64,000 nucleotides of DNA from Lepagella sp. (GTDB lineage: Bacteria > Bacteroidota > Bacteroidia > Bacteroidales > Muribaculaceae). Location of the stretch: contig JBJEKI010000047.1 in the NCBI GenBank assembly GCA_051878555.1, positions 47,203 to 111,202 on the forward strand. Reading direction: 5' to 3'. The notes under the pieces were generated by a model. That model saw only the letters and a list, made by a program, of their open reading frames with translations. It searched no databases and was not told the DNA's origin. The translations under genes were made by a program, and so were the position numbers. Below are positions 1-6,866 of the stretch, one piece after another. Every line of letters begins with the position of its first letter. The first letter of the stretch is position 1.

Positions 1-361
1 GTGTGGCTGCCCAGTAGGGAAAGTCGTGGCGCTGGCGGATGCGGTCGATACGGTCGGAAAGCCGCTGACGGTCGCGCTGCACGATGCTACGCCTCTCGCG
101 TGCTTCAAGCCAGCTATCGACACTCCCATATCGCAGCAGGGAGGCTATCTCCGGCTCGCTCCGCATCGACTCGGGAAGCCATGCCGTCGGCAGCCCCTCC
201 ACCTCGAAGAGAAAGCGTTCCCCCGTCGAGTTCTCTCCACTCACCGGGTCGAAGGGGGCGCGGATCTCTGTCATGCGTCGCGAATCTTCGGCAAGAAGAC
301 GTTCCACTTCGTCGAGTGTCTCCGGATCGGGTATCTGCTGATTGTCAAATATTGTTGTCAT
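1..361 (-). CDS. Phage-type terminase large subunit-like protein, N-terminal part (runs off the window)
   Basis: Manual translation from ATG 361: MTTIFDNQQIPDPETLDEVERLLAEDSRRMTEIRAPFDPVSGENSTGERF...RIRQRHDFPYWAAT. The APFDPxSGE.S.GER and HDFxxWAA segments match my recollection of the N-terminus of Bacteroidales proteins annotated as terminase. The ATPase motifs lie outside the window. Confidence 0.65.
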   Translation of the reverse strand, partial: MTTIFDNQQIPDPETLDEVERLLAEDSRRMTEIRAPFDPVSGENSTGERFLFEVEGLPTAWLPESMRSEPEIASLLRYGSVDSWLEARERRSIVQRDRQRLSDRIDRIRQRHDFPYWAAT

Positions 362-816
362 ATCGATAATAGTGATGGCTGTTGGTTCGGTAAATGGGAT
401 TGGATGGAAAGGTGCTGATGCCGACTTTTGCGAGTTCGGTAGATGATGCAGCGTGCCGATTCGTCGGTGAGGTAAAATTCAGGCGCCTCTTGATAGATCA
501 CTTCGCTGCACGCCCCGAGGAGCGTCATCTCGGGATGGTATGCCAATATTCTCTTGACTCGGCGTGTTATCTCTTCATACATCTCGCGCCGCTTCTGATT
601 GATCCGTCCCAAGGGGCGCCCTTGTAACATCGCCGAAACGACGATAGCTGCCCGTTGCTCACTCACCCAGAATCGCGAGGAGGGGCGCGAAGCTGCCAAG
701 CCAAACATATCCCGAAGCGCTACTCCTCGCGATGTGCGGAGGATATCCATAAATCGACGATGCAACTCCCGGTTGCGCTCGTCAGTGAAATCTGATGTGC
801 TGCCCTGTTTCTTCAT
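358..816 (-). CDS. Conserved hypothetical protein coupled to the terminase-like gene (possible TerS/DNA-binding protein)
   Basis: 152-aa ORF with RFWVSEQRAAIV and APEFYLT segments. Its stop overlaps the next start (ATGA at 358-361). Confidence 0.6.
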   Translation of the reverse strand: MKKQGSTSDFTDERNRELHRRFMDILRTSRGVALRDMFGLAASRPSSRFWVSEQRAAIVVSAMLQGRPLGRINQKRREMYEEITRRVKRILAYHPEMTLLGACSEVIYQEAPEFYLTDESARCIIYRTRKSRHQHLSIQSHLPNQQPSLLSI

Positions 817-1007
817 AATAGCCTCTTTTTAGTAATGAGGGATCCGACCTCGGCGAAGACCCGACTTCGGATCCCCCTTTAATGATATAAATTGTAAGTG
901 TATTGATGTGTGGAATAAGGTCTTTCAGATCGTTCTTATTCTTTGTCTACCGAGTTATCTTGGCGCCCATAGATGTCTGTGAAGAATGCCTCTTTGATAA
1001 CTCGCTG

Positions 1008-1015
1008 CAAAGTTA
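1008..1015 (-). promoter_or_regulatory. Bacteroidetes sigma-A -7 box TAACTTTG driving the terminase-like operon
   Basis: Matches TAnnTTTG, ~190 nt upstream of ATG 816. Confidence 0.6.
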
Positions 1016-1126
1016 ATAAGTCGGACTGCTACTTCTTGGCAGAGCTAAACTAATAAATGTAAAACGATGTTAACGAATGTAAAATAAAGACCGGACAATA
1101 AATTCTCTACGGAAGTGTATATACGA

Positions 1127-1160
1127 AAAAAAGAGACGCATCACTGTGTCTCTTTTTTTC
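1127..1160. terminator. Bidirectional intrinsic terminator
   Basis: AAAAAAAGAGAC-GCATCACTGT-GTCTCTTTTTTT: hairpin with a T-tract on both strands. Confidence 0.75.
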
Positions 1161-1376
1161 CGATCGACCTCAAAATCCTTCGAAGTGCGACCGTGTGTCC
1201 TAATTCTAATTGATTAAACTATTAATCCATAACTTTACTAATGCAACAATAATTTGTCAATGAAACGATATATACGATATACTTTTTGTCAATGAAACAA
1301 ACACACTACAATTCTCCATCAGGAGTCTTGCTTGCGGATTGGAGTGACGCTGTTTTCTGCTTTCACACCAATCTAC
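1127..1376 (-). ncRNA. Candidate ~245-nt small RNA
   Basis: Full promoter on the minus strand (TTTG 1410-1413, 21-nt spacer, TATATTTG 1381-1388), no ORF over ~20 codons, ends at the 1127-1160 terminator. Confidence 0.45.
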
Positions 1377-1543
1377 GATGCAAATATACACATTATATTC
1401 TAATTTTTCCAAATATTTATCTTATTTTTAACATTTCTTTTTTTAACCAATGTTAAAAATAAATTTTTTTGGCCTGTTTGGCTCCTGTTTTGGGCGATAA
1501 TGCCCTTTTCGGGTTCTTTTATTGGCCTTTTTAGGTGATACCG

Positions 1544-2332
1544 CTATCTCTCCCGATAGCGGCGGATCACTTCGTCGAGCCAGTCGATATGAGTGTCGAC
1601 ATGCTTGGTGCGCTCGATTGCCACCGGCACTACGGAGATGATGCCATGTGCCAACGCCCATTCGTCGGTCTCGGTGTTCTCAGGCTCCATGTTCTCATAT
1701 TTGCCGGTAATCCAGTAGAATTTGCGCCCGAACGGGTCGGTGTATTCTTTGTATTCGTCGTTCCATCGCCCGTTGCAGGGATCACACAGTTTCATCTCTG
1801 CCGGCACTCCCTCGATATTTGGAACGTTGACATTCAGACATACTCCCGAGGGCAATCCATTTTCCAACACGGCGCGAGTCAGCAGGTCGACAGCTCTCAA
1901 GCAGGGGGTGAAGTCGGCGCTCGGCGAGTGGTCGGTGAGCGAAAAACCAATCGAGGGGATTCCGAAGGCTGTTCCCTCCATCGTCGCCCCCATTGTGCCG
2001 CTGTAGAGAACGTTGATCGCTGAGTTCGATCCGTGGTTGATCCCTGCCACGATCAGGTCGGGACGACGATCCAATACATGATACATCGCTAATTTGATGC
2101 AGTCCACCGGTGTGCCCGTCGCACTATACATCTTCGCTCCCTTGTAGTCGGGTAGCGCATTGATGTGAAGGGGCTGGTTCACCGTAATCGCCATCGATTG
2201 CCCCGATTGTGGATATTGGGGGCACACCGCCACCACATCCCCGATCTCGACAAGTCGCTCGATCAGAACATGTACGCCAAGTGCCTGGTATGAATCGTCG
2301 TTACTTACAAGTATTAAAGGTCGTTTTCCCAT
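1544..2332 (-). CDS. surE: 5'/3'-nucleotidase SurE
   Basis: ILVSNDD, GTPVDC, GINHGSN and YSGTMGA motifs. Confidence 0.95.
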   Translation of the reverse strand: MGKRPLILVSNDDSYQALGVHVLIERLVEIGDVVAVCPQYPQSGQSMAITVNQPLHINALPDYKGAKMYSATGTPVDCIKLAMYHVLDRRPDLIVAGINHGSNSAINVLYSGTMGATMEGTAFGIPSIGFSLTDHSPSADFTPCLRAVDLLTRAVLENGLPSGVCLNVNVPNIEGVPAEMKLCDPCNGRWNDEYKEYTDPFGRKFYWITGKYENMEPENTETDEWALAHGIISVVPVAIERTKHVDTHIDWLDEVIRRYRER

Positions 2333-2385
2333 ATTTTCTCTATTTAATGTATTGATTGCACCCCATTCTTATCTCCTATCTCTAT

Positions 2386-2413
2386 TTCCTAATTCCTAAT
2401 TCCTAATTCCTAA
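2386..2413. repeat. Heptamer tandem repeat (TTCCTAA)x4
   Basis: Directly visible; overlaps the GT2 stop codon. Confidence 0.8.
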
Positions 2414-3420
2414 CTGCCAATTCCCTCAATTTTCTCTTTCCGCATTATATATCTTGCCCAAATGGCGCTCCGGTCGGCTCCCGGAAGGGTGAGCAGCACA
2501 TCTTTGTCGGCTGTCTCACCATATTCCCGACGCATCCGCCGGAAGTCGCGGTGGGCGCGGATGATGGCTCGCATATTGGAGATGTCTCCTTTGAGCAGAT
2601 ACATCACTATGGCGAGCGTGTCGGCAAGTCGTCGATAGATCAGCAACTTCCTCCCTGTCTTGCGGGTCAAGTTCTTATGCAGCAGCAGGAGGTTGTTGCG
2701 GAAGTTCAAGTAGGTCTTGCGTGGATCCCCCTGTTGCAAGGATGCCCCGCCGACATGATATACCGCCGAGTCGGTCAGAGCACACACCCTATATCCGGCG
2801 TTGTGAACTCGGCAACAGAGGTCGATCTCTTCCATGTGAGCGAAAAATTTCGGATCGAGTCCCCCGAGGCGGTTATAGAGCTCGGTAGGCATAGTCAAAC
2901 ATGCCCCCGACGCCCATGCCACTTCCGTCGGAGCTCCATCATATTGCCCTTCATCTTTCTCCACCACGTCGAAGAGCCTCCCTCGACAGTAGGGATAGCC
3001 TAAGCAATCCAGATATCCCCCTGCCGCTCCGGCATATTCGAAGCGACTCTTATCCCTGTAACTCAATATCTTGGGCTGCACTGCCCCAACTTCGGGATGA
3101 CTCTCCATGTATTCCAAGAGGGGCTCCCACCAGCCGGGGGTCACTTCGACATCGGAGTTCAGGAGGGTGACGTAGCGATATTTCACCTGTGAGATAACGC
3201 GGTTGTAACCCTCCGCAAAACCGTAGTTCTCTCCCAGCTCGATGACTTTCACTTCGGGGTGATGCTCCCGAAGCCATGCCACTGATGCGTCGTCCGATCC
3301 ATTGTCGGCTACAATCAAGTCGACTCGGTCGCTGATGGTATGGCGCGAGGCTGTCGGGATAAAGCGCTTGAGCAACGCTATCCCGTTCCAATTCAATATT
3401 ATTACTCCTAATTCTTTCAT
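2410..3420 (-). CDS. Glycosyltransferase family 2
   Basis: IILNWNG, ADNGSDD, LLNSDV, WASGAC and MEEIDLC motifs. Confidence 0.9.
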   Translation of the reverse strand: MKELGVIILNWNGIALLKRFIPTASRHTISDRVDLIVADNGSDDASVAWLREHHPEVKVIELGENYGFAEGYNRVISQVKYRYVTLLNSDVEVTPGWWEPLLEYMESHPEVGAVQPKILSYRDKSRFEYAGAAGGYLDCLGYPYCRGRLFDVVEKDEGQYDGAPTEVAWASGACLTMPTELYNRLGGLDPKFFAHMEEIDLCCRVHNAGYRVCALTDSAVYHVGGASLQQGDPRKTYLNFRNNLLLLHKNLTRKTGRKLLIYRRLADTLAIVMYLLKGDISNMRAIIRAHRDFRRMRREYGETADKDVLLTLPGADRSAIWARYIMRKEKIEGIGS

Positions 3421-3462
3421 GCGGTTGCCTCTTTTTTTCTCTTTTGTCGTTCGGCTGTCGAT

Positions 3463-4740
3463 TTATTGTTCGGCTGAGATGTTGTCGTCGCTCAGCACTA
3501 CTTCGGTGACTTTGTTCACCAACGCCGGGTCATAGTCTGCTTCGACTCGGATATAGTTTTCGGTAAAGCCATGCATCTTGCCGGCTCCGTGGGTGGGTTG
3601 CTCCCAGAGCACACGTCCCTTCGTGCCGATATGTCGGCGGAGGAATTGGGCATGTTTCTCCTTGGAGATCTCTATCAGTTCGCCGGCGCGGCGATGTTTC
3701 TCTTCTTGGCTCACTTTGTCGCCAAGGAGGAGTGCCTTGGTGCCGGGGCGCTCGGAGTAGGGGAAGACATGGAGCTGGTTGACTTCGAGGCTGCTGGCAT
3801 ATTCGAGGCTCTTCTTCCACTCTTCGGGAGTCTCACCGCGGGCTCCCGCTATGATGTCGACACCTATGAAGGCATCGGGGATAACCTGGCGTATCCGGGT
3901 GATGCGGTCGCTGAAGAGTGTGGTGTCATATCGCCGATTCATCAATTTAAGCACACGGTCGGATCCTGATTGCAAGGGTATATGGAAGTGGGGCATGAAG
4001 CGCTTCGATTCGCCGGCAATCCATTCGATGATCTCGGGGGTGATGAGGTTGGGCTCGATTGAGGAGATGCGGTAGCGTTCGATACCCTCTACTCGATCCA
4101 AGGCCCTGAGGAGGTCGAAAAACTTCTCGCCGGTGTCGCGGCCGAAGTCGCCGATGTTCACGCCGGTGATCACTATCTCTTTGCCACCCTCGGCGGCTAC
4201 ATCTTCCGCCAATTGGACGATCTCGCTGATCTTGCCGCTGCGCGAGCGCCCTCGCGCGTAGGGTATCGTGCAGTAGGTGCAGTAGTAGTCGCATCCATCT
4301 TGCACTTTCAGAAAGTAGCGTGTGCGGTCGCCTCGCTCGCAGGAGGGCATAAATTCCCGAATCTCCAATGAGGGGGTTACCTCAACTTGGCTGCAACGGG
4401 TCTTCATCCATCTATCCAAGTATTGGACTATGCGCAATTTCTCGTTCGACCCCAACACGATGTCGACACCCGGCAAACTTGCCACTTCGTCAGGCTTAAG
4501 CTGGGCATAGCATCCGGTTACGACTATCGTTGCCTCGGGCGATTGCCGCGAGAGCTTCCGCACAAGCTGACGACCCTTCTTGTCGGCCATCTCCGTTACC
4601 GAACATGTGTTGATCACGATGATATCGGGCTCTTCACCCTCATCGGCGCGGGTGATGCCCCTTGAGGCTAACATCTTGCCGATGGTCGAAGTCTCCGAAA
4701 AATTGAGCTTACACCCCAATGTATAATACGCTGCTTTCAA
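3463..4740 (-). CDS. mtaB: tRNA t6A37 methylthiotransferase MtaB
   Basis: TLGCKLNFSE, NTCSVT and radical-SAM QDGCDYYCTYC motifs plus a TRAM-like end; TTG start. Confidence 0.92.
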   Translation of the reverse strand: MKAAYYTLGCKLNFSETSTIGKMLASRGITRADEGEEPDIIVINTCSVTEMADKKGRQLVRKLSRQSPEATIVVTGCYAQLKPDEVASLPGVDIVLGSNEKLRIVQYLDRWMKTRCSQVEVTPSLEIREFMPSCERGDRTRYFLKVQDGCDYYCTYCTIPYARGRSRSGKISEIVQLAEDVAAEGGKEIVITGVNIGDFGRDTGEKFFDLLRALDRVEGIERYRISSIEPNLITPEIIEWIAGESKRFMPHFHIPLQSGSDRVLKLMNRRYDTTLFSDRITRIRQVIPDAFIGVDIIAGARGETPEEWKKSLEYASSLEVNQLHVFPYSERPGTKALLLGDKVSQEEKHRRAGELIEISKEKHAQFLRRHIGTKGRVLWEQPTHGAGKMHGFTENYIRVEADYDPALVNKVTEVVLSDDNISAEQ

Positions 4741-4805
4741 TTCCGCTTATTTTATTTTTGTCATTCACCAAATGAACACACTCATATATAATGAGAGTAT
4801 ATATC

Positions 4806-4846
4806 TTTAAGAGAACGCGAACCTTTTTTAAGAGAACGCGAACCTT
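4806..4846. repeat. 20-bp direct repeat x2 (TTTAAGAGAACGCGAACCTT) in the mtaB leader
   Basis: Copies at 4806-4825 and 4827-4846, plus a degenerate third copy at ~4854-4870. Confidence 0.85.
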
Positions 4847-4992
4847 CTAATACAAAAGACGCGACCTAAACCAAAAGATCACTTCCAAACTGCAAAGATA
4901 ATGCAAATTCCCGAATTGCCGAAAACCCACCCGCCAATTTCTCAAAAATTGCCCCGCACAGATACTGTTTCTTTGAGTGTGTCTGAGCGAAG

Positions 4993-5026
4993 GCACAAAA
5001 AGGGACTTGTAGATAGTACAAGTCCC
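4993..5026 (-). terminator. Intrinsic terminator of the R-M operon
   Basis: Stem GGGACTTGTA/TACAAGTCCC with a 5-nt loop, followed by TTTTT on the minus strand. Confidence 0.8.
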
Positions 5027-5087
5027 GGGAAGTTTGTAGTTTTAGGTGACCAAACTTAAAACCTACAAGGTGTACTTCAACTAATGT

Positions 5088-6866
5088 TTATGAAGCATCG
5101 TCAACTCGCTCTTCTCTTTTAGATGAATCACTCATAATACTGCCTAACAATGTATCTCGATAGGTATTGAAAATGTTCAATTTGACAGGCAAGTATTTGG
5201 GAAGGCTTTGAAGGTACTCCAAGTCAAATACTAAACGAGGTTCTTTATCCTCACTTTCAGGATAAATCTCAGCCTTATTGCCAATACGTACTATACGAAT
5301 ATAGTAGAGGTCTTTAACACCTTTCCCTTTTATATAAGGCATAAAGTAATAAAGCTTGTTAAGTGCAACAGTTGAAGGGAACGATTTAGTCTTTCCTGTA
5401 TAATAAATCTTCGATTGACTACCATCAAGAAAATAATCGGTATTATCGGATTTAACAAAACCGATTAATACATTTTTAGTCAATTCCAACTTGTATTTTT
5501 TCTTAACGGGATTGAACTTTAATTGACTATCCAATTCCGCAAATAAGTCATAGCTAAGAGTAGGCTGAGCATCACGCTTTGTGTCGATAGGATGAGTCGA
5601 AATCGGCTCCTTGTCGTATATGAAACGATAAAGGCTCTTACCTACCTGCTGAATAATGCCGCACACCAAAGCATTGCCCATAAGAAATGCTCTGCGCCCA
5701 TCAGTTACATCAGGATGATAAGTGTGATTGTCTGGGAACATATTAAGTCGTTCCAACTCCAAAGGAATAAGGCGACGATAACGCCCGGATGGCGTAAGAA
5801 TGACGTGCTTGAATCTAGATGCAGATGCACCGCCTTCTCCCGTAATTATTGTTCGTGAAGGTTTGTCAAGCGAATCAGGAAAGGCCATTGCTCCTTCAGA
5901 GAAAGTATAGGTGAAACCTTCAGCAGATGTCCGTTCTATTTTCTTTGCCCCTTTCTCATATTCCCACTTCCCTACTTCTTCTTCGGGAATGAAAAATTCC
6001 TCAGGCACTAACGATTCATCAACTACACTGCCTCCAAGAGTCATATATGTGCCATCATAAACAGGATTCGCGTCAACAGAGTATACATGACGGCTACGCA
6101 TGATTCCTGCATTTCCAAAAGGACTTGCGGCATTTCCTTTGTTACTTTTGTTAAAGTTGTCTGAGACCTCTTGGATTGTTCCTTCTATGTCAAATTCAGA
6201 TACACTCTTCTCGATTTTTTCAAATGGAAATGCTTTTGCCATTACGCCATCAAAGAGGACCCAATTGTTGAGTGACTCAATTTTATTAGATACATGAGAC
6301 CCCTTACGATAACCAACGATATAGGTGCGACGACGGCGCTGTGGCATACCATATTCAGCAGCATTGATAATGCGCCACTCTACGGTATAACCGAGATCAG
6401 CAAGTGAAGCCAAAATGATGGCAAAATCGCGACCTCTTTGCTTGGCAGGTGACCCAAGCAAACGATCTACGTTCTCAAAGAAAATGTAGTTAGGCCGATT
6501 ATCTCCTTTCTCGTTTAGAATGCGATAAATCTGCCACCAAAGCACACCTTTTTTCCCCTCGATACCACCGGAACGACTAAGAGATGCAGCTACTGAATAA
6601 TCTTGGCAAGGAAATCCTCCAACTAGAAGGTCGTGGTTAGGTATATCTTCAGTTTTGACAGTGTTTATATCTTTATTACAATGACCTTTTGAACCAAATC
6701 GAGCGCGATAGACTAAGGAAGCATCTTGATGTACAGTCGATGGCTCCCACTGATTATTCCAAATTGTTTCGTATGCATTGGATGCACCTTCTAAACCAAT
6801 GCGGAATCCGCCCACACCGGCAAAAAGTTCAACAACTCTTATCTTGTTATCGTTTCTTTTAGGCAT
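5088..6866 (-). CDS. DNA (cytosine-5)-methyltransferase, M.Sau3AI-like, with an extra ~175-aa C-terminal region
   Basis: ELFAGVGG, GGFPCQDYSVA, ENVDRLL, QRGRDF, PQRRRR, ERLNMFPD and GNAL motifs; the NQWEPS and GIEGKKGVLWWQI segments are characteristic of the Sau3AI subfamily. Confidence 0.92.
   Translation of the reverse strand: MPKRNDNKIRVVELFAGVGGFRIGLEGASNAYETIWNNQWEPSTVHQDASLVYRARFGSKGHCNKDINTVKTEDIPNHDLLVGGFPCQDYSVAASLSRSGGIEGKKGVLWWQIYRILNEKGDNRPNYIFFENVDRLLGSPAKQRGRDFAIILASLADLGYTVEWRIINAAEYGMPQRRRRTYIVGYRKGSHVSNKIESLNNWVLFDGVMAKAFPFEKIEKSVSEFDIEGTIQEVSDNFNKSNKGNAASPFGNAGIMRSRHVYSVDANPVYDGTYMTLGGSVVDESLVPEEFFIPEEEVGKWEYEKGAKKIERTSAEGFTYTFSEGAMAFPDSLDKPSRTIITGEGGASASRFKHVILTPSGRYRRLIPLELERLNMFPDNHTYHPDVTDGRRAFLMGNALVCGIIQQVGKSLYRFIYDKEPISTHPIDTKRDAQPTLSYDLFAELDSQLKFNPVKKKYKLELTKNVLIGFVKSDNTDYFLDGSQSKIYYTGKTKSFPSTVALNKLYYFMPYIKGKGVKDLYYIRIVRIGNKAEIYPESEDKEPRLVFDLEYLQSLPKYLPVKLNIFNTYRDTLLGSIMSDSSKREERVDDAS

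What the first reader, a model, noticed from the sequence alone, without database searches (positions are those of the whole stretch)
1127..1413. Orphan promoter-to-terminator unit with a duplicated 14-nt motif: candidate novel sRNA
Seen: a complete Bacteroidetes promoter on the minus strand (TTTG-N21-TATATTTG) and a strong terminator ~245 nt downstream, with no ORF longer than ~20 codons between them. The interval has a 5' hairpin (GATTGG-TGTGA...TCAC-T-CCAATC), a small CTCC/GGAG stem, and two exact copies of GTTTCATTGACAAA (plus strand 1253-1266 and 1285-1298) in weakly structured sequence. Inference: repeated single-stranded motifs suggest a protein-sponge or multi-target sRNA. Read-through would also reach the terminase-like operon.
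Basis: partly seen in the sequence, partly recalled or inferred. Interest (0 to 1): 0.6.

Follow-up and report, generated by a model that had tools for sequence, protein, structure and literature searches.

The report
New conserved small RNA in Muribaculaceae
This is a real, previously undescribed small RNA gene of one genus of mouse and human gut bacteria, with an unusually invariant 70-base core that may switch off other genes by pairing with their messages.

Summary
Window 1126-1413 (minus strand) carries a canonical Bacteroidetes promoter, a structured ~247-nt non-coding stretch and an intrinsic terminator.

It is the local copy of an RNA family absent from Rfam 15. A covariance model finds it, mostly once per genome, in 66 of 100 other genomes of the same Muribaculaceae genus (records labelled Sangeribacter/Lepagella) and finds nothing convincing in other genera.

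Only the 3' ~150 nt are the family. They comprise a ~71-column block with 62 invariant columns, a strongly covarying hairpin and a covarying terminator. G.U pairs (306 against 12 A.C) fix the strand. The 14-mer duplication occurs only in this species and its sister.

Best reading (0.55): a trans-acting base-pairing sRNA. Its invariant seed has a ~31-nt complement just upstream of the cell-division gene ftsL in this species and its sister. A different species has a perfect 19-nt complement before a prophage capsid gene. No target is conserved genus-wide and expression is untested.

The protein-sponge idea is weakly supported: no CsrA was found. This is a new member of a known kind.

The parts
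1381..1413 (-). Promoter of the primary Bacteroidetes sigma factor type: TTTG, 21-nt spacer, TATATTTG
   Evidence: Exact pattern match (8 in the window against 0.57 expected). A TAnnTTTG box lies 34-247 nt upstream of the conserved core in 28 of 29 loci and in 65 of 66 further loci. Consensus as quoted in passages of PMC7366714.
1272..1376 (-). Lineage-specific 5' domain. It holds the 5' hairpin (1337-1373), the CTCC/GGAG stem (1314-1325) and the first copy of the 14-mer (1285-1298). The start site near 1374-1377 is inferred.
   Evidence: Not alignable in G110, G131, G087 or G172. Against sister species G229 the sequence diverges but both stems keep pairing: GATTGG/CCAATC becomes AATCGG/CCGATT, and CTCC/GGAG becomes CCC/GGG. 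The stems appear in the fold.
1197..1271 (-). Invariant AU-rich block. It holds the second 14-mer (1253-1266), predicted hairpin H1 (arms 1254-1259 and 1244-1249) and weak hairpin H2/H3.
   Evidence: 62 of 71 columns are invariant among 30 species, against 14 of 71 in the rest of the RNA. H1 is replaced by other self-complementary arms in divergent members, and H3 tolerates loop insertions. Indels break every reading frame.
1207..1238 (-). Proposed seed region. Its centre, GUUAUGGAUUAAU, is the most universally kept motif.
   Evidence: About 31 nt are complementary to the rsmH-ftsL spacer of the same genome (E 1.7e-5; duplex -33.7 kcal/mol, the best non-self site). A perfect 19-nt complement lies before a prophage capsid gene in G237. 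The motif is kept even in the most divergent homologues.
1161..1193 (-). Hairpin H4. The stem is variable and the apical part is conserved, with GGA in the loop.
   Evidence: 11 of 15 pairs and 14 of 15 pairs show changes on both sides. The many G.U pairs fix the strand.
1126..1159 (-). Intrinsic terminator: A-run, stem 1133-1152 with a conserved loop, then a U-run at 1126-1132
   Evidence: Present in the fold. 11 of 16 pairs and 13 of 16 pairs change on both sides. Not listed by the simple scanner.

Best explanation
Window ~1126-1376 (minus strand) is a gene for an independently transcribed, non-coding, structured small RNA of about 247 nt. It belongs to a family restricted to one Muribaculaceae genus.

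Transcription starts from its own TTTG/TAnnTTTG promoter and ends at its own intrinsic terminator. Both are shown by sequence and comparative evidence; expression itself is not shown.

The RNA has two parts. The 5' domain evolves fast. The 3' module is conserved and consists of an invariant AU-rich block, a covarying hairpin and the terminator.

I infer that it acts in trans by antisense pairing of the invariant block, centred on GUUAUGGAUUAAU, with leader regions of mRNAs just upstream of their start codons. That would lower translation or stability, as described for the AU-rich, Hfq-independent sRNAs of Bacteroides.

In this species the best candidate target is ftsL in the division and cell-wall cluster, with a weaker site before queA. 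Targets appear to differ between lineages.
For: Gene status:
- Own promoter.
- Terminator and hairpin H4 with compensatory changes. Whole-structure covariation exceeded all 500 shuffles and every slid control.
- 306 G.U against 12 A.C cells in A4, and 801 against 45 in A6, fix the strand.
- No conserved ORF.
- Mostly single copy in 66 of 100 other genus genomes, and in 30 of 42 high-quality genomes counting the own one.
- All 80 listed loci of the 100 pattern hits have model matches.
- Neighbours differ, and 21 of 22 downstream genes have their own -7 box.

Constraint: 62 of 71 columns are invariant in species whose SurE proteins are only 49-75% identical.

Pairing, this species:
- The only long second match in the genome is a ~31-nt complement on the mRNA strand. 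It ends about 23 nt before the ftsL ATG and is the best non-self duplex.
- It is kept in sister species G229 with one A-to-G change that preserves a wobble pair, while the adjacent spacer differs at about 5 of 23 positions plus an indel.
- It covers a loop insertion specific to this lineage.

Pairing, other evidence:
- Of 101 genus genomes, the only other site with at most 1 mismatch to the 19-mer is a perfect complement 10 nt before the ATG of a prophage capsid-like gene in G237.
- A neighbouring 19-mer of the RNA gave no such extra site.
- Both non-self copies of the 12-mer complement in this genome lie on the mRNA strand 29-41 nt before start codons, of ftsL and queA. The queA block is identical in G229.
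Against: - No transcript data exist.
- No target site is conserved across the genus. Of 30 rsmH-ftsL spacers viewed, only G000 and G229 carry the complement. None of 15 other queA leaders has more than 6 complementary bases.
- The queA 14-mer alone is at chance level (E 1.9).
- Extra sites with 2 mismatches are about as frequent as hits of the reversed control pattern.
- 62 invariant columns are far more than a pairing seed needs, which points to an additional or different constraint.
- Part of the seed is predicted to sit in a weak hairpin.
- The ftsL site ends about 23 nt before the ATG, so direct ribosome occlusion is uncertain.
Confidence: 0.55

Rival explanations
1. Protein-binding or sponge RNA. 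The invariant block is a platform for an RNA-binding protein, for example an RRM protein of the RbpB type, a KH protein or the ribosome, and titrates it.
For: - 62 of 71 invariant columns exceed what a seed needs.
- GGA motifs are conserved: AUGGAU, UAGGAC, and AAGGAU in the H4 loop.
- The block contains an A-rich stretch followed by AUG GAU UAA, which resembles an initiation region (my reading).
- RbpB binds sRNAs in Bacteroides (passages of PMC11697453).
Against: - No CsrA gene in the genome, which is 92.8% complete.
- The repeated 14-mer that prompted the idea is lineage-specific.
- No partner protein is identified.
- Long antisense sites at two independent leaders are not explained by this reading.
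Confidence: 0.2
2. Host RNA tied to prophage control. The RNA represses, or is exploited by, temperate phages, with the capsid-gene site in G237 as the model.
For: - A perfect 19-nt complement lies 10 nt before the ATG of a capsid-like gene, directly after a head-maturation protease gene.
- In this genome the RNA gene abuts a phage-like packaging cluster.
Against: - There is only one such site in 101 genomes.
- The homologous prophage spacer in this genome has only a degenerate resemblance.
- The 18-mer occurs in 1 viral contig of IMG/VR.
- The adjacent phage-like cluster shows no complement.
Confidence: 0.1
3. Cis-acting leader (riboswitch or attenuator) whose terminator controls the gene downstream.
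For: - Conserved block plus hairpin plus terminator.
- Co-directional downstream genes in most loci, often cell-envelope genes: Mur ligase in 9 loci and FtsX in 8.
Against: - There are at least 8 different downstream genes, and some are convergent.
- 21 of 22 downstream genes have their own -7 box after the terminator.
- There is no complementarity to the neighbours' start regions above shuffled controls.
Confidence: 0.07
4. DNA-level element (operator or iteron repeats, or an attachment site), or a housekeeping RNA such as 6S.
For: - Two exact 14-mers lie 32 bp apart.
- There is a short palindrome in the block.
- No 6S gene was located elsewhere in the genome.
Against: - Strand-asymmetric G.U pairing and compensatory changes show selection on an RNA.
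- The repeat is lineage-specific.
- The palindrome is replaced by other self-complementary arms in divergent members.
- The 5' end varies by 34-247 nt and does not pair with the 3' end, unlike a 6S rod.
- The family is confined to one genus.
Confidence: 0.05

Closest known systems
GibS and FopS intergenic sRNAs of Bacteroides thetaiotaomicron
   Same: Own sigma-ABfr-type promoter, low G+C (0.32-0.39 for the core), a Rho-independent terminator and no Hfq. Extended AU-rich seeds pair near start codons (passages of PMC7366714, and of PMC11697453).
   Different: No sequence or model match: the Rfam scan at E up to 10 found nothing. The invariant part lies in the middle or 3' part rather than at the 5' end. 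The RNA is much longer (~190-350 nt), single-copy, and confined to a Muribaculaceae genus.
DicF (ftsZ) of E. coli and UpsM in the dcw leader of Rhodobacter
   Same: Small RNAs linked to division and cell-wall genes. UpsM was seen only as a search listing and abstract of PMC5089854. DicF is recalled, not taken from a call.
   Different: Here the candidate target is ftsL, through a spacer inside the operon. The site exists only in this species and its sister. There is no homology.
CsrB/RsmZ-type sponge RNAs
   Same: Several conserved GGA motifs, one of them in a hairpin loop.
   Different: No CsrA gene. Only 3-4 GGA motifs. Most of the conserved sequence is not GGA-related.
SrcF of Segatella copri
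   Same: A Bacteroidales gut-commensal sRNA found by transcriptomics. Seen only as the search listing and abstract of 10.1101/2024.04.05.588293.
   Different: Not compared at sequence level. No Rfam-type match to any family was found here.

Membership tests
Any Rfam 15 family | Covariance-model match at or near the gathering score | tested here: not met
   cmscan of window 1-6000 at E up to 10 found only a 20-bit mir-6 match (gathering score 58) on the terminator hairpin.
Trans-encoded intergenic sRNA (kind) | Own promoter and own terminator, conserved across species | tested here: met
   promoter; terminator covariation.
Trans-encoded intergenic sRNA (kind) | No conserved protein-coding frame | tested here: met
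   plus frame-breaking 1-nt indels and loop insertions in the block.
Trans-encoded intergenic sRNA (kind) | Transcript of the predicted size is made | not testable with these tools
   No expression data are available. Literature searches found no Muribaculaceae RNA map (listings only).
Trans-encoded intergenic sRNA (kind) | Seed pairs with target mRNAs | tested here: inconclusive
   Long lineage-specific complements exist at ftsL and at a prophage capsid gene. No genus-wide target was found.
6S RNA | Match to RF00013 or RF01685 | tested here: not met
   No match anywhere in the genome. RF01685 rang in no control genome, so that test is weak.
6S RNA | Rod-like fold with paired 5' and 3' ends and a central bubble | tested here: not met
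   The fold is a row of separate hairpins ending in a terminator. The 5' part varies by 34-247 nt between species.
CsrB/RsmZ-type sponge | CsrA/RsmA partner encoded in the genome | tested here: not met
   PF02599 was not found. The genome is 92.8% complete, and controls rang in 3 genomes.
CsrB/RsmZ-type sponge | Many GGA motifs in loops | tested here: inconclusive
   One GGA sits in the H4 loop and 2-3 in the weakly paired block.
Riboswitch or attenuator leader | The same regulated gene downstream, with no promoter in between | tested here: not met
   At least 8 different neighbours, and 21 of 22 have their own -7 box.
GibS/FopS family | Shared seed sequence or Rfam model | tested here: not met
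   No hit. The FopS model is said to be in Rfam (passage of PMC11697453).

The most novel reading that the evidence does not exclude
An almost invariant, genus-specific RNA serves as a fixed hub onto which different lineages have repeatedly evolved long antisense sites in operon-internal leaders: ftsL and queA in this species, and a prophage capsid gene in another. Cell division, and in some species prophage late genes, would thereby come under one RNA. The extreme invariance (62 of 71 columns) would reflect a second, still unknown partner, such as a protein or the ribosome, that binds the same block.
Probability: 0.2. Interest if true: 0.7.

Novelty: new member of a known kind. Interest (0 to 1): 0.5.

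Why it matters
Muribaculaceae are dominant members of the mouse gut and common in humans. In my literature searches (listings only) I found no RNA map or described sRNA for them.

This family is a clean first candidate. It is mostly single-copy, present in cultured strains, and has a defined promoter, structure and seed. It comes with a testable link to the division gene ftsL.

Its degree of invariance, in species whose housekeeping proteins are only about 50% identical, is unusual for a bacterial regulatory RNA. That suggests a constraint worth finding.

Tried and rejected
- **Rfam at permissive threshold:** nothing.

- **6S models:** no hit anywhere, so 6S could not be excluded by locating it elsewhere. 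It was excluded on architecture instead.

- **CsrA:** absent.

- **Plain DNA search in 201 family genomes:** 25 genomes matched. Only G110, G131, G087 and (briefly) G172 matched the RNA body. The others I checked, together with the listed query ranges (mostly 5-77), matched only the promoter segment, which reflects promoter likeness rather than homology.

- **Weak model hits outside the genus (28-41 bits):** they align mainly to the terminator. One is a tRNA plus terminator, and none lies next to surE. Rejected as homologues.

- **Conservation of the ftsL site:** absent in 28 of 30 spacers.

- **Conservation of the queA site:** absent in 15 of 15 other species.

- **Pairing with start regions of the downstream Mur-ligase and FtsX genes:** not above shuffles.

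- **Link to the dispersed (TTAGGAA)n repeat,** whose unit resembles part of the block: the repeat is in only 8 of 101 genus genomes and does not track the RNA. Dropped.

- **Idea that the RNA's 3' end is an attachment site of the neighbouring phage-like cluster:** the 12-nt repeat near queA is at chance level (E 30), and the gene upstream of queA is conserved in other species. Dropped.

- **Viral contigs:** 1 hit for the 18-mer.

- **Duplex-energy scans with long windows** were noisy and count only as rough rankings.

- **Supplementary files of papers** were not consulted. The sRNA lists of PMC7366714 and PMC11697453 may hold relatives that I could not see.

Full report
**Setting.** The finding lies in a 727-bp AT-rich spacer (817-1543) between two minus-strand genes. 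One is surE (1544-2332; PF01975, E 5.5e-52). The other is a 152-aa phage-type ORF (358-816; phrog_27246). The genome is a 2.45-Mb, 133-contig assembly, 92.8% complete. Records carrying the same element are labelled Muribaculaceae, Sangeribacter, Lepagella and similar.

**Observation.**
- The promoter pattern is at 1381-1413 on the minus strand. There are 8 full matches in the window against 0.57 expected, and one of the others sits before tRNA-Asp.
- The 14-mer occurs exactly twice, against 0.01 expected.
- The 5' hairpin, the CTCC/GGAG stem and the terminator are all in the minimum-free-energy fold of the minus strand (-77.8 kcal/mol, z -5.9). The plus strand folds worse (-58.2, z -4.0).
- The consensus terminator scanner did not list the terminator. 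I take it as real from the fold and from covariation.
- No usable ORF exists.
- Rfam at E up to 10 gives only a noise match of a microRNA model on the terminator hairpin.

**Conservation.** A DNA search of 201 family genomes matched the 3' half of the unit in four genomes of the same genus. Elsewhere it matched only the promoter segment.

Alignment of five species showed that the part upstream of window ~1271 is not alignable, while ~1271-1120 is conserved.

A covariance model built from those five found the element in 66 of 100 other genus genomes, mostly once each. Counting the own genome, that is 30 of 42 high-quality genomes. In 150 other family genomes of at least 90% completeness it found the element only in genus members, plus weak hits. 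The weak hits align to the terminator, and one is a tRNA with a terminator. They are not next to surE, except in G035, a true but divergent orthologue of the same genus. A second model built from 32 sequences did not extend the range.

An exact pattern from the invariant block hit 100 stretches among one genome per species of 185,579 species. All 80 listed were Muribaculaceae-type records, and they include two cultured strains. All 80 listed loci have model matches of 82-158 bits, some cut by contig ends.

**Anatomy of the family.** Among 30 species, 62 of 71 columns of the first block are invariant, against 14 of 71 in the remainder. The block stays 87-91% identical to the window copy, counting gap columns, in species whose SurE is 49-75% identical.

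Hairpin H4 and the terminator vary freely but keep pairing:
- In A4, 11 of 15 pairs (H4) and 11 of 16 pairs (terminator) change on both sides. 96.1% of cells are paired, against 40-50% when partners are slid, and 0 of 500 shuffles reach the observed values.
- In the independent 80-sequence set the figures are 14 of 15 and 13 of 16.
- Both alignments were fitted to the model, and the 80 loci were chosen by a pattern inside the block. Invariance of the block in that set is therefore by construction.

G.U pairs outnumber A.C cells 306 to 12 and 801 to 45. The RNA strand is therefore the window's minus strand.

Inside the block, covariation is scarce because little varies. In divergent members, however, H1 is replaced by other self-complementary arms. 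H3 shows one U-A to A-U swap and accepts a ~25-nt loop insertion. GUUAUGGAUU and UUAGGAUUAGG persist throughout. One-nucleotide indels rule out a conserved peptide.

**Transcription unit.**
- A TAnnTTTG box lies 34-247 nt upstream of the block in 28 of 29 loci and in 65 of 66 further loci. The full two-part promoter is present in 19 of 29 and 25 of 66. My rough estimate for a chance box in 260 AT-rich bases is about 0.17.
- The 5' extension therefore differs in length, falling into classes near 40, 64, 90-117, 135-144 and 166-200 nt, and also in sequence.
- surE lies upstream on the same strand in 20 of 32 loci, own genome included, and downstream in one. Several loci lack upstream sequence.
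- Downstream genes differ: Mur ligase/alanine racemase 11 (9 co-directional), FtsX 8, YjeF-type 2, phage-like 2, and eight singletons.
- 21 of 22 downstream genes have their own -7 box after the terminator.
- This is an independent gene, not a leader.

The 5' hairpin, the small stem and the first 14-mer lie in the lineage-specific 5' domain.

Against sister species G229 (SurE 95.8% identical), the stretch from the first 14-mer to the terminator is identical but for one base. The 5' ~80 nt have diverged, with compensatory changes in both stems.

An exact upstream copy of the 13-mer exists in 2 of 29 loci (the window and G229), with a 2-mismatch copy in one more. In the second set it is 2 of 66, plus one with 2 mismatches. 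The duplication is therefore real and selected locally, but it does not define the family.

**Function.** The only long second match of the RNA in its own genome (E 1.7e-5) lies in the spacer between rsmH/mraW and ftsL, ahead of a PBP gene. The mRNA strand there is complementary to RNA positions 1238-1207. By my alignment the match is about 31 nt with two mismatches and one wobble. It ends about 23 nt before the ftsL ATG.

It is the best non-self duplex in a 9-mer-seeded genome scan: -33.7 kcal/mol, against -30.0 and -29.0 for the next sites, which are not at gene starts.

Only G000 and G229 have it among 30 rsmH-ftsL spacers. Between these two species the site has one A-to-G change that keeps a wobble pair, while the next 23 nt differ at about 5 positions plus an indel. 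The site also covers the H3-loop insertion that only this lineage has.

Across 101 genus genomes, the 19-mer at the centre of the seed has extra sites with at most 1 mismatch only at the ftsL spacer (G000) and in G237. The orthologous G229 site has 2 mismatches. In G237 a perfect 19-nt complement lies on the mRNA strand 10 nt before the ATG of a 346-aa gene. That gene follows a head-maturation protease gene (phrog_94, E 6e-30) and is capsid-like by language-model features (score 0.99). Sites with 2 mismatches are about as common as hits of the reversed control pattern (8 against 6), so I treat them as chance. The adjacent 19-mer of the RNA gave no extra site; one apparent hit was a contig-end overlap.

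In this genome the 12-mer complement occurs three times. One is the gene itself. The other two are on the mRNA strand 29 and 41 nt before the ftsL and queA start codons. The queA block of 34 nt is identical in G229 while its flanks differ, but it is absent from 15 other species.

Taken together, this favours antisense action through GUUAUGGAUUAAU with lineage-specific targets. It is not proof.

**Against, and open.**
- There are no expression data.
- No genus-wide target was found.
- Invariance far exceeds the needs of a seed.
- The seed is partly inside a weak hairpin.
- A protein partner remains possible, although CsrA is absent.
- 6S is excluded on architecture, not by finding the true 6S.

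**Comparison with the known.** The unit works like the AU-rich, Hfq-independent sRNAs of Bacteroides: the TAnnTTTG/TTTG promoter consensus, about 35% G+C, extended seeds and pairing at initiation regions (passages of PMC7366714, and of PMC11697453). It is not a member of any described family. Searches for Muribaculaceae sRNAs or RNA maps, and for natural sRNAs acting on ftsL, returned nothing pertinent in the listings. I read no further than listings and abstracts for those.

**Verdict.** This is a real feature. It is a new RNA family of a known kind, confined to one Muribaculaceae genus, with an unusually invariant core and a concrete, testable candidate target.

| Claim | Confidence |
|---|---|
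| It is an RNA gene | about 0.9 |
| It acts by base pairing in trans | about 0.55 |
| ftsL is a target in this species | about 0.35 |

Noticed in passing
window 2386-2413 (minus-strand sense), and ~35 loci in the own genome: A dispersed heptamer microsatellite (TTAGGAA)n, n=2-8, lies in intergenic spacers. It often begins at the end of an upstream same-strand ORF and sits 12-72 nt before the next one; here it spans the stop of the GT2 gene and lies before surE. The exact (TTAGGAA)3 occurs in only 8 of 101 genus genomes (54 hits in this genome), and the reversed control pattern occurs nowhere. Its function is unknown.
   Followed up: partly
window 1-816 and own contig C47 ~32.1-48.0 kb (left of the window): A ~16-kb run of minus-strand phage-like ORFs (152 aa phrog_27246, 720 aa, 431 aa, 482 aa, 815 aa, 346 aa and others) lies between the RNA gene and queA. 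In nine other genus genomes queA lies only 3-7 kb from the RNA gene (coordinates; ORFs). The cluster is shared with sister species G229.
   Followed up: partly
L196 (G237:C15) 1184-1202: The spacer between a prophage head-maturation protease gene and a capsid-like gene carries a perfect 19-nt complement to the host RNA's invariant seed, 10 nt before the ATG. The homologous prophage spacer in this genome (C19 ~6715-6860) has only a degenerate resemblance.
   Followed up: partly
L060, L062 and the RNA terminators (window 1140-1146): The terminator loop motif (G)CAGTGAT(G)C recurs in unrelated terminators of other Muribaculaceae genera, for example after a tRNA gene in G174. This is what drives the weak model hits outside the genus.
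   Followed up: no
L168 5447-5515: One genome has a second, partial copy (hairpin H4 plus terminator only, 50.6 bits) about 50 nt downstream of its full RNA gene.
   Followed up: no
G206 (C49, C260) and G282 (C44, C355): Two genomes carry two strong copies on different contigs. They could be true paralogues, strain mixtures or assembly artefacts. G227's apparent second copy was a contig-end overlap.
   Followed up: partly
L086 (G264), rsmH-ftsL spacer: This spacer is built of other short tandem units, a 14-mer and a related one, twice each. They resemble the TTAGGA-type repeats.
   Followed up: no
window 5088-6866: A 592-aa C-5 cytosine DNA methylase (PF00145, E 4.7e-62) has a long C-terminal extension beyond the matched domain, which covers residues 9-413.
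   Followed up: no
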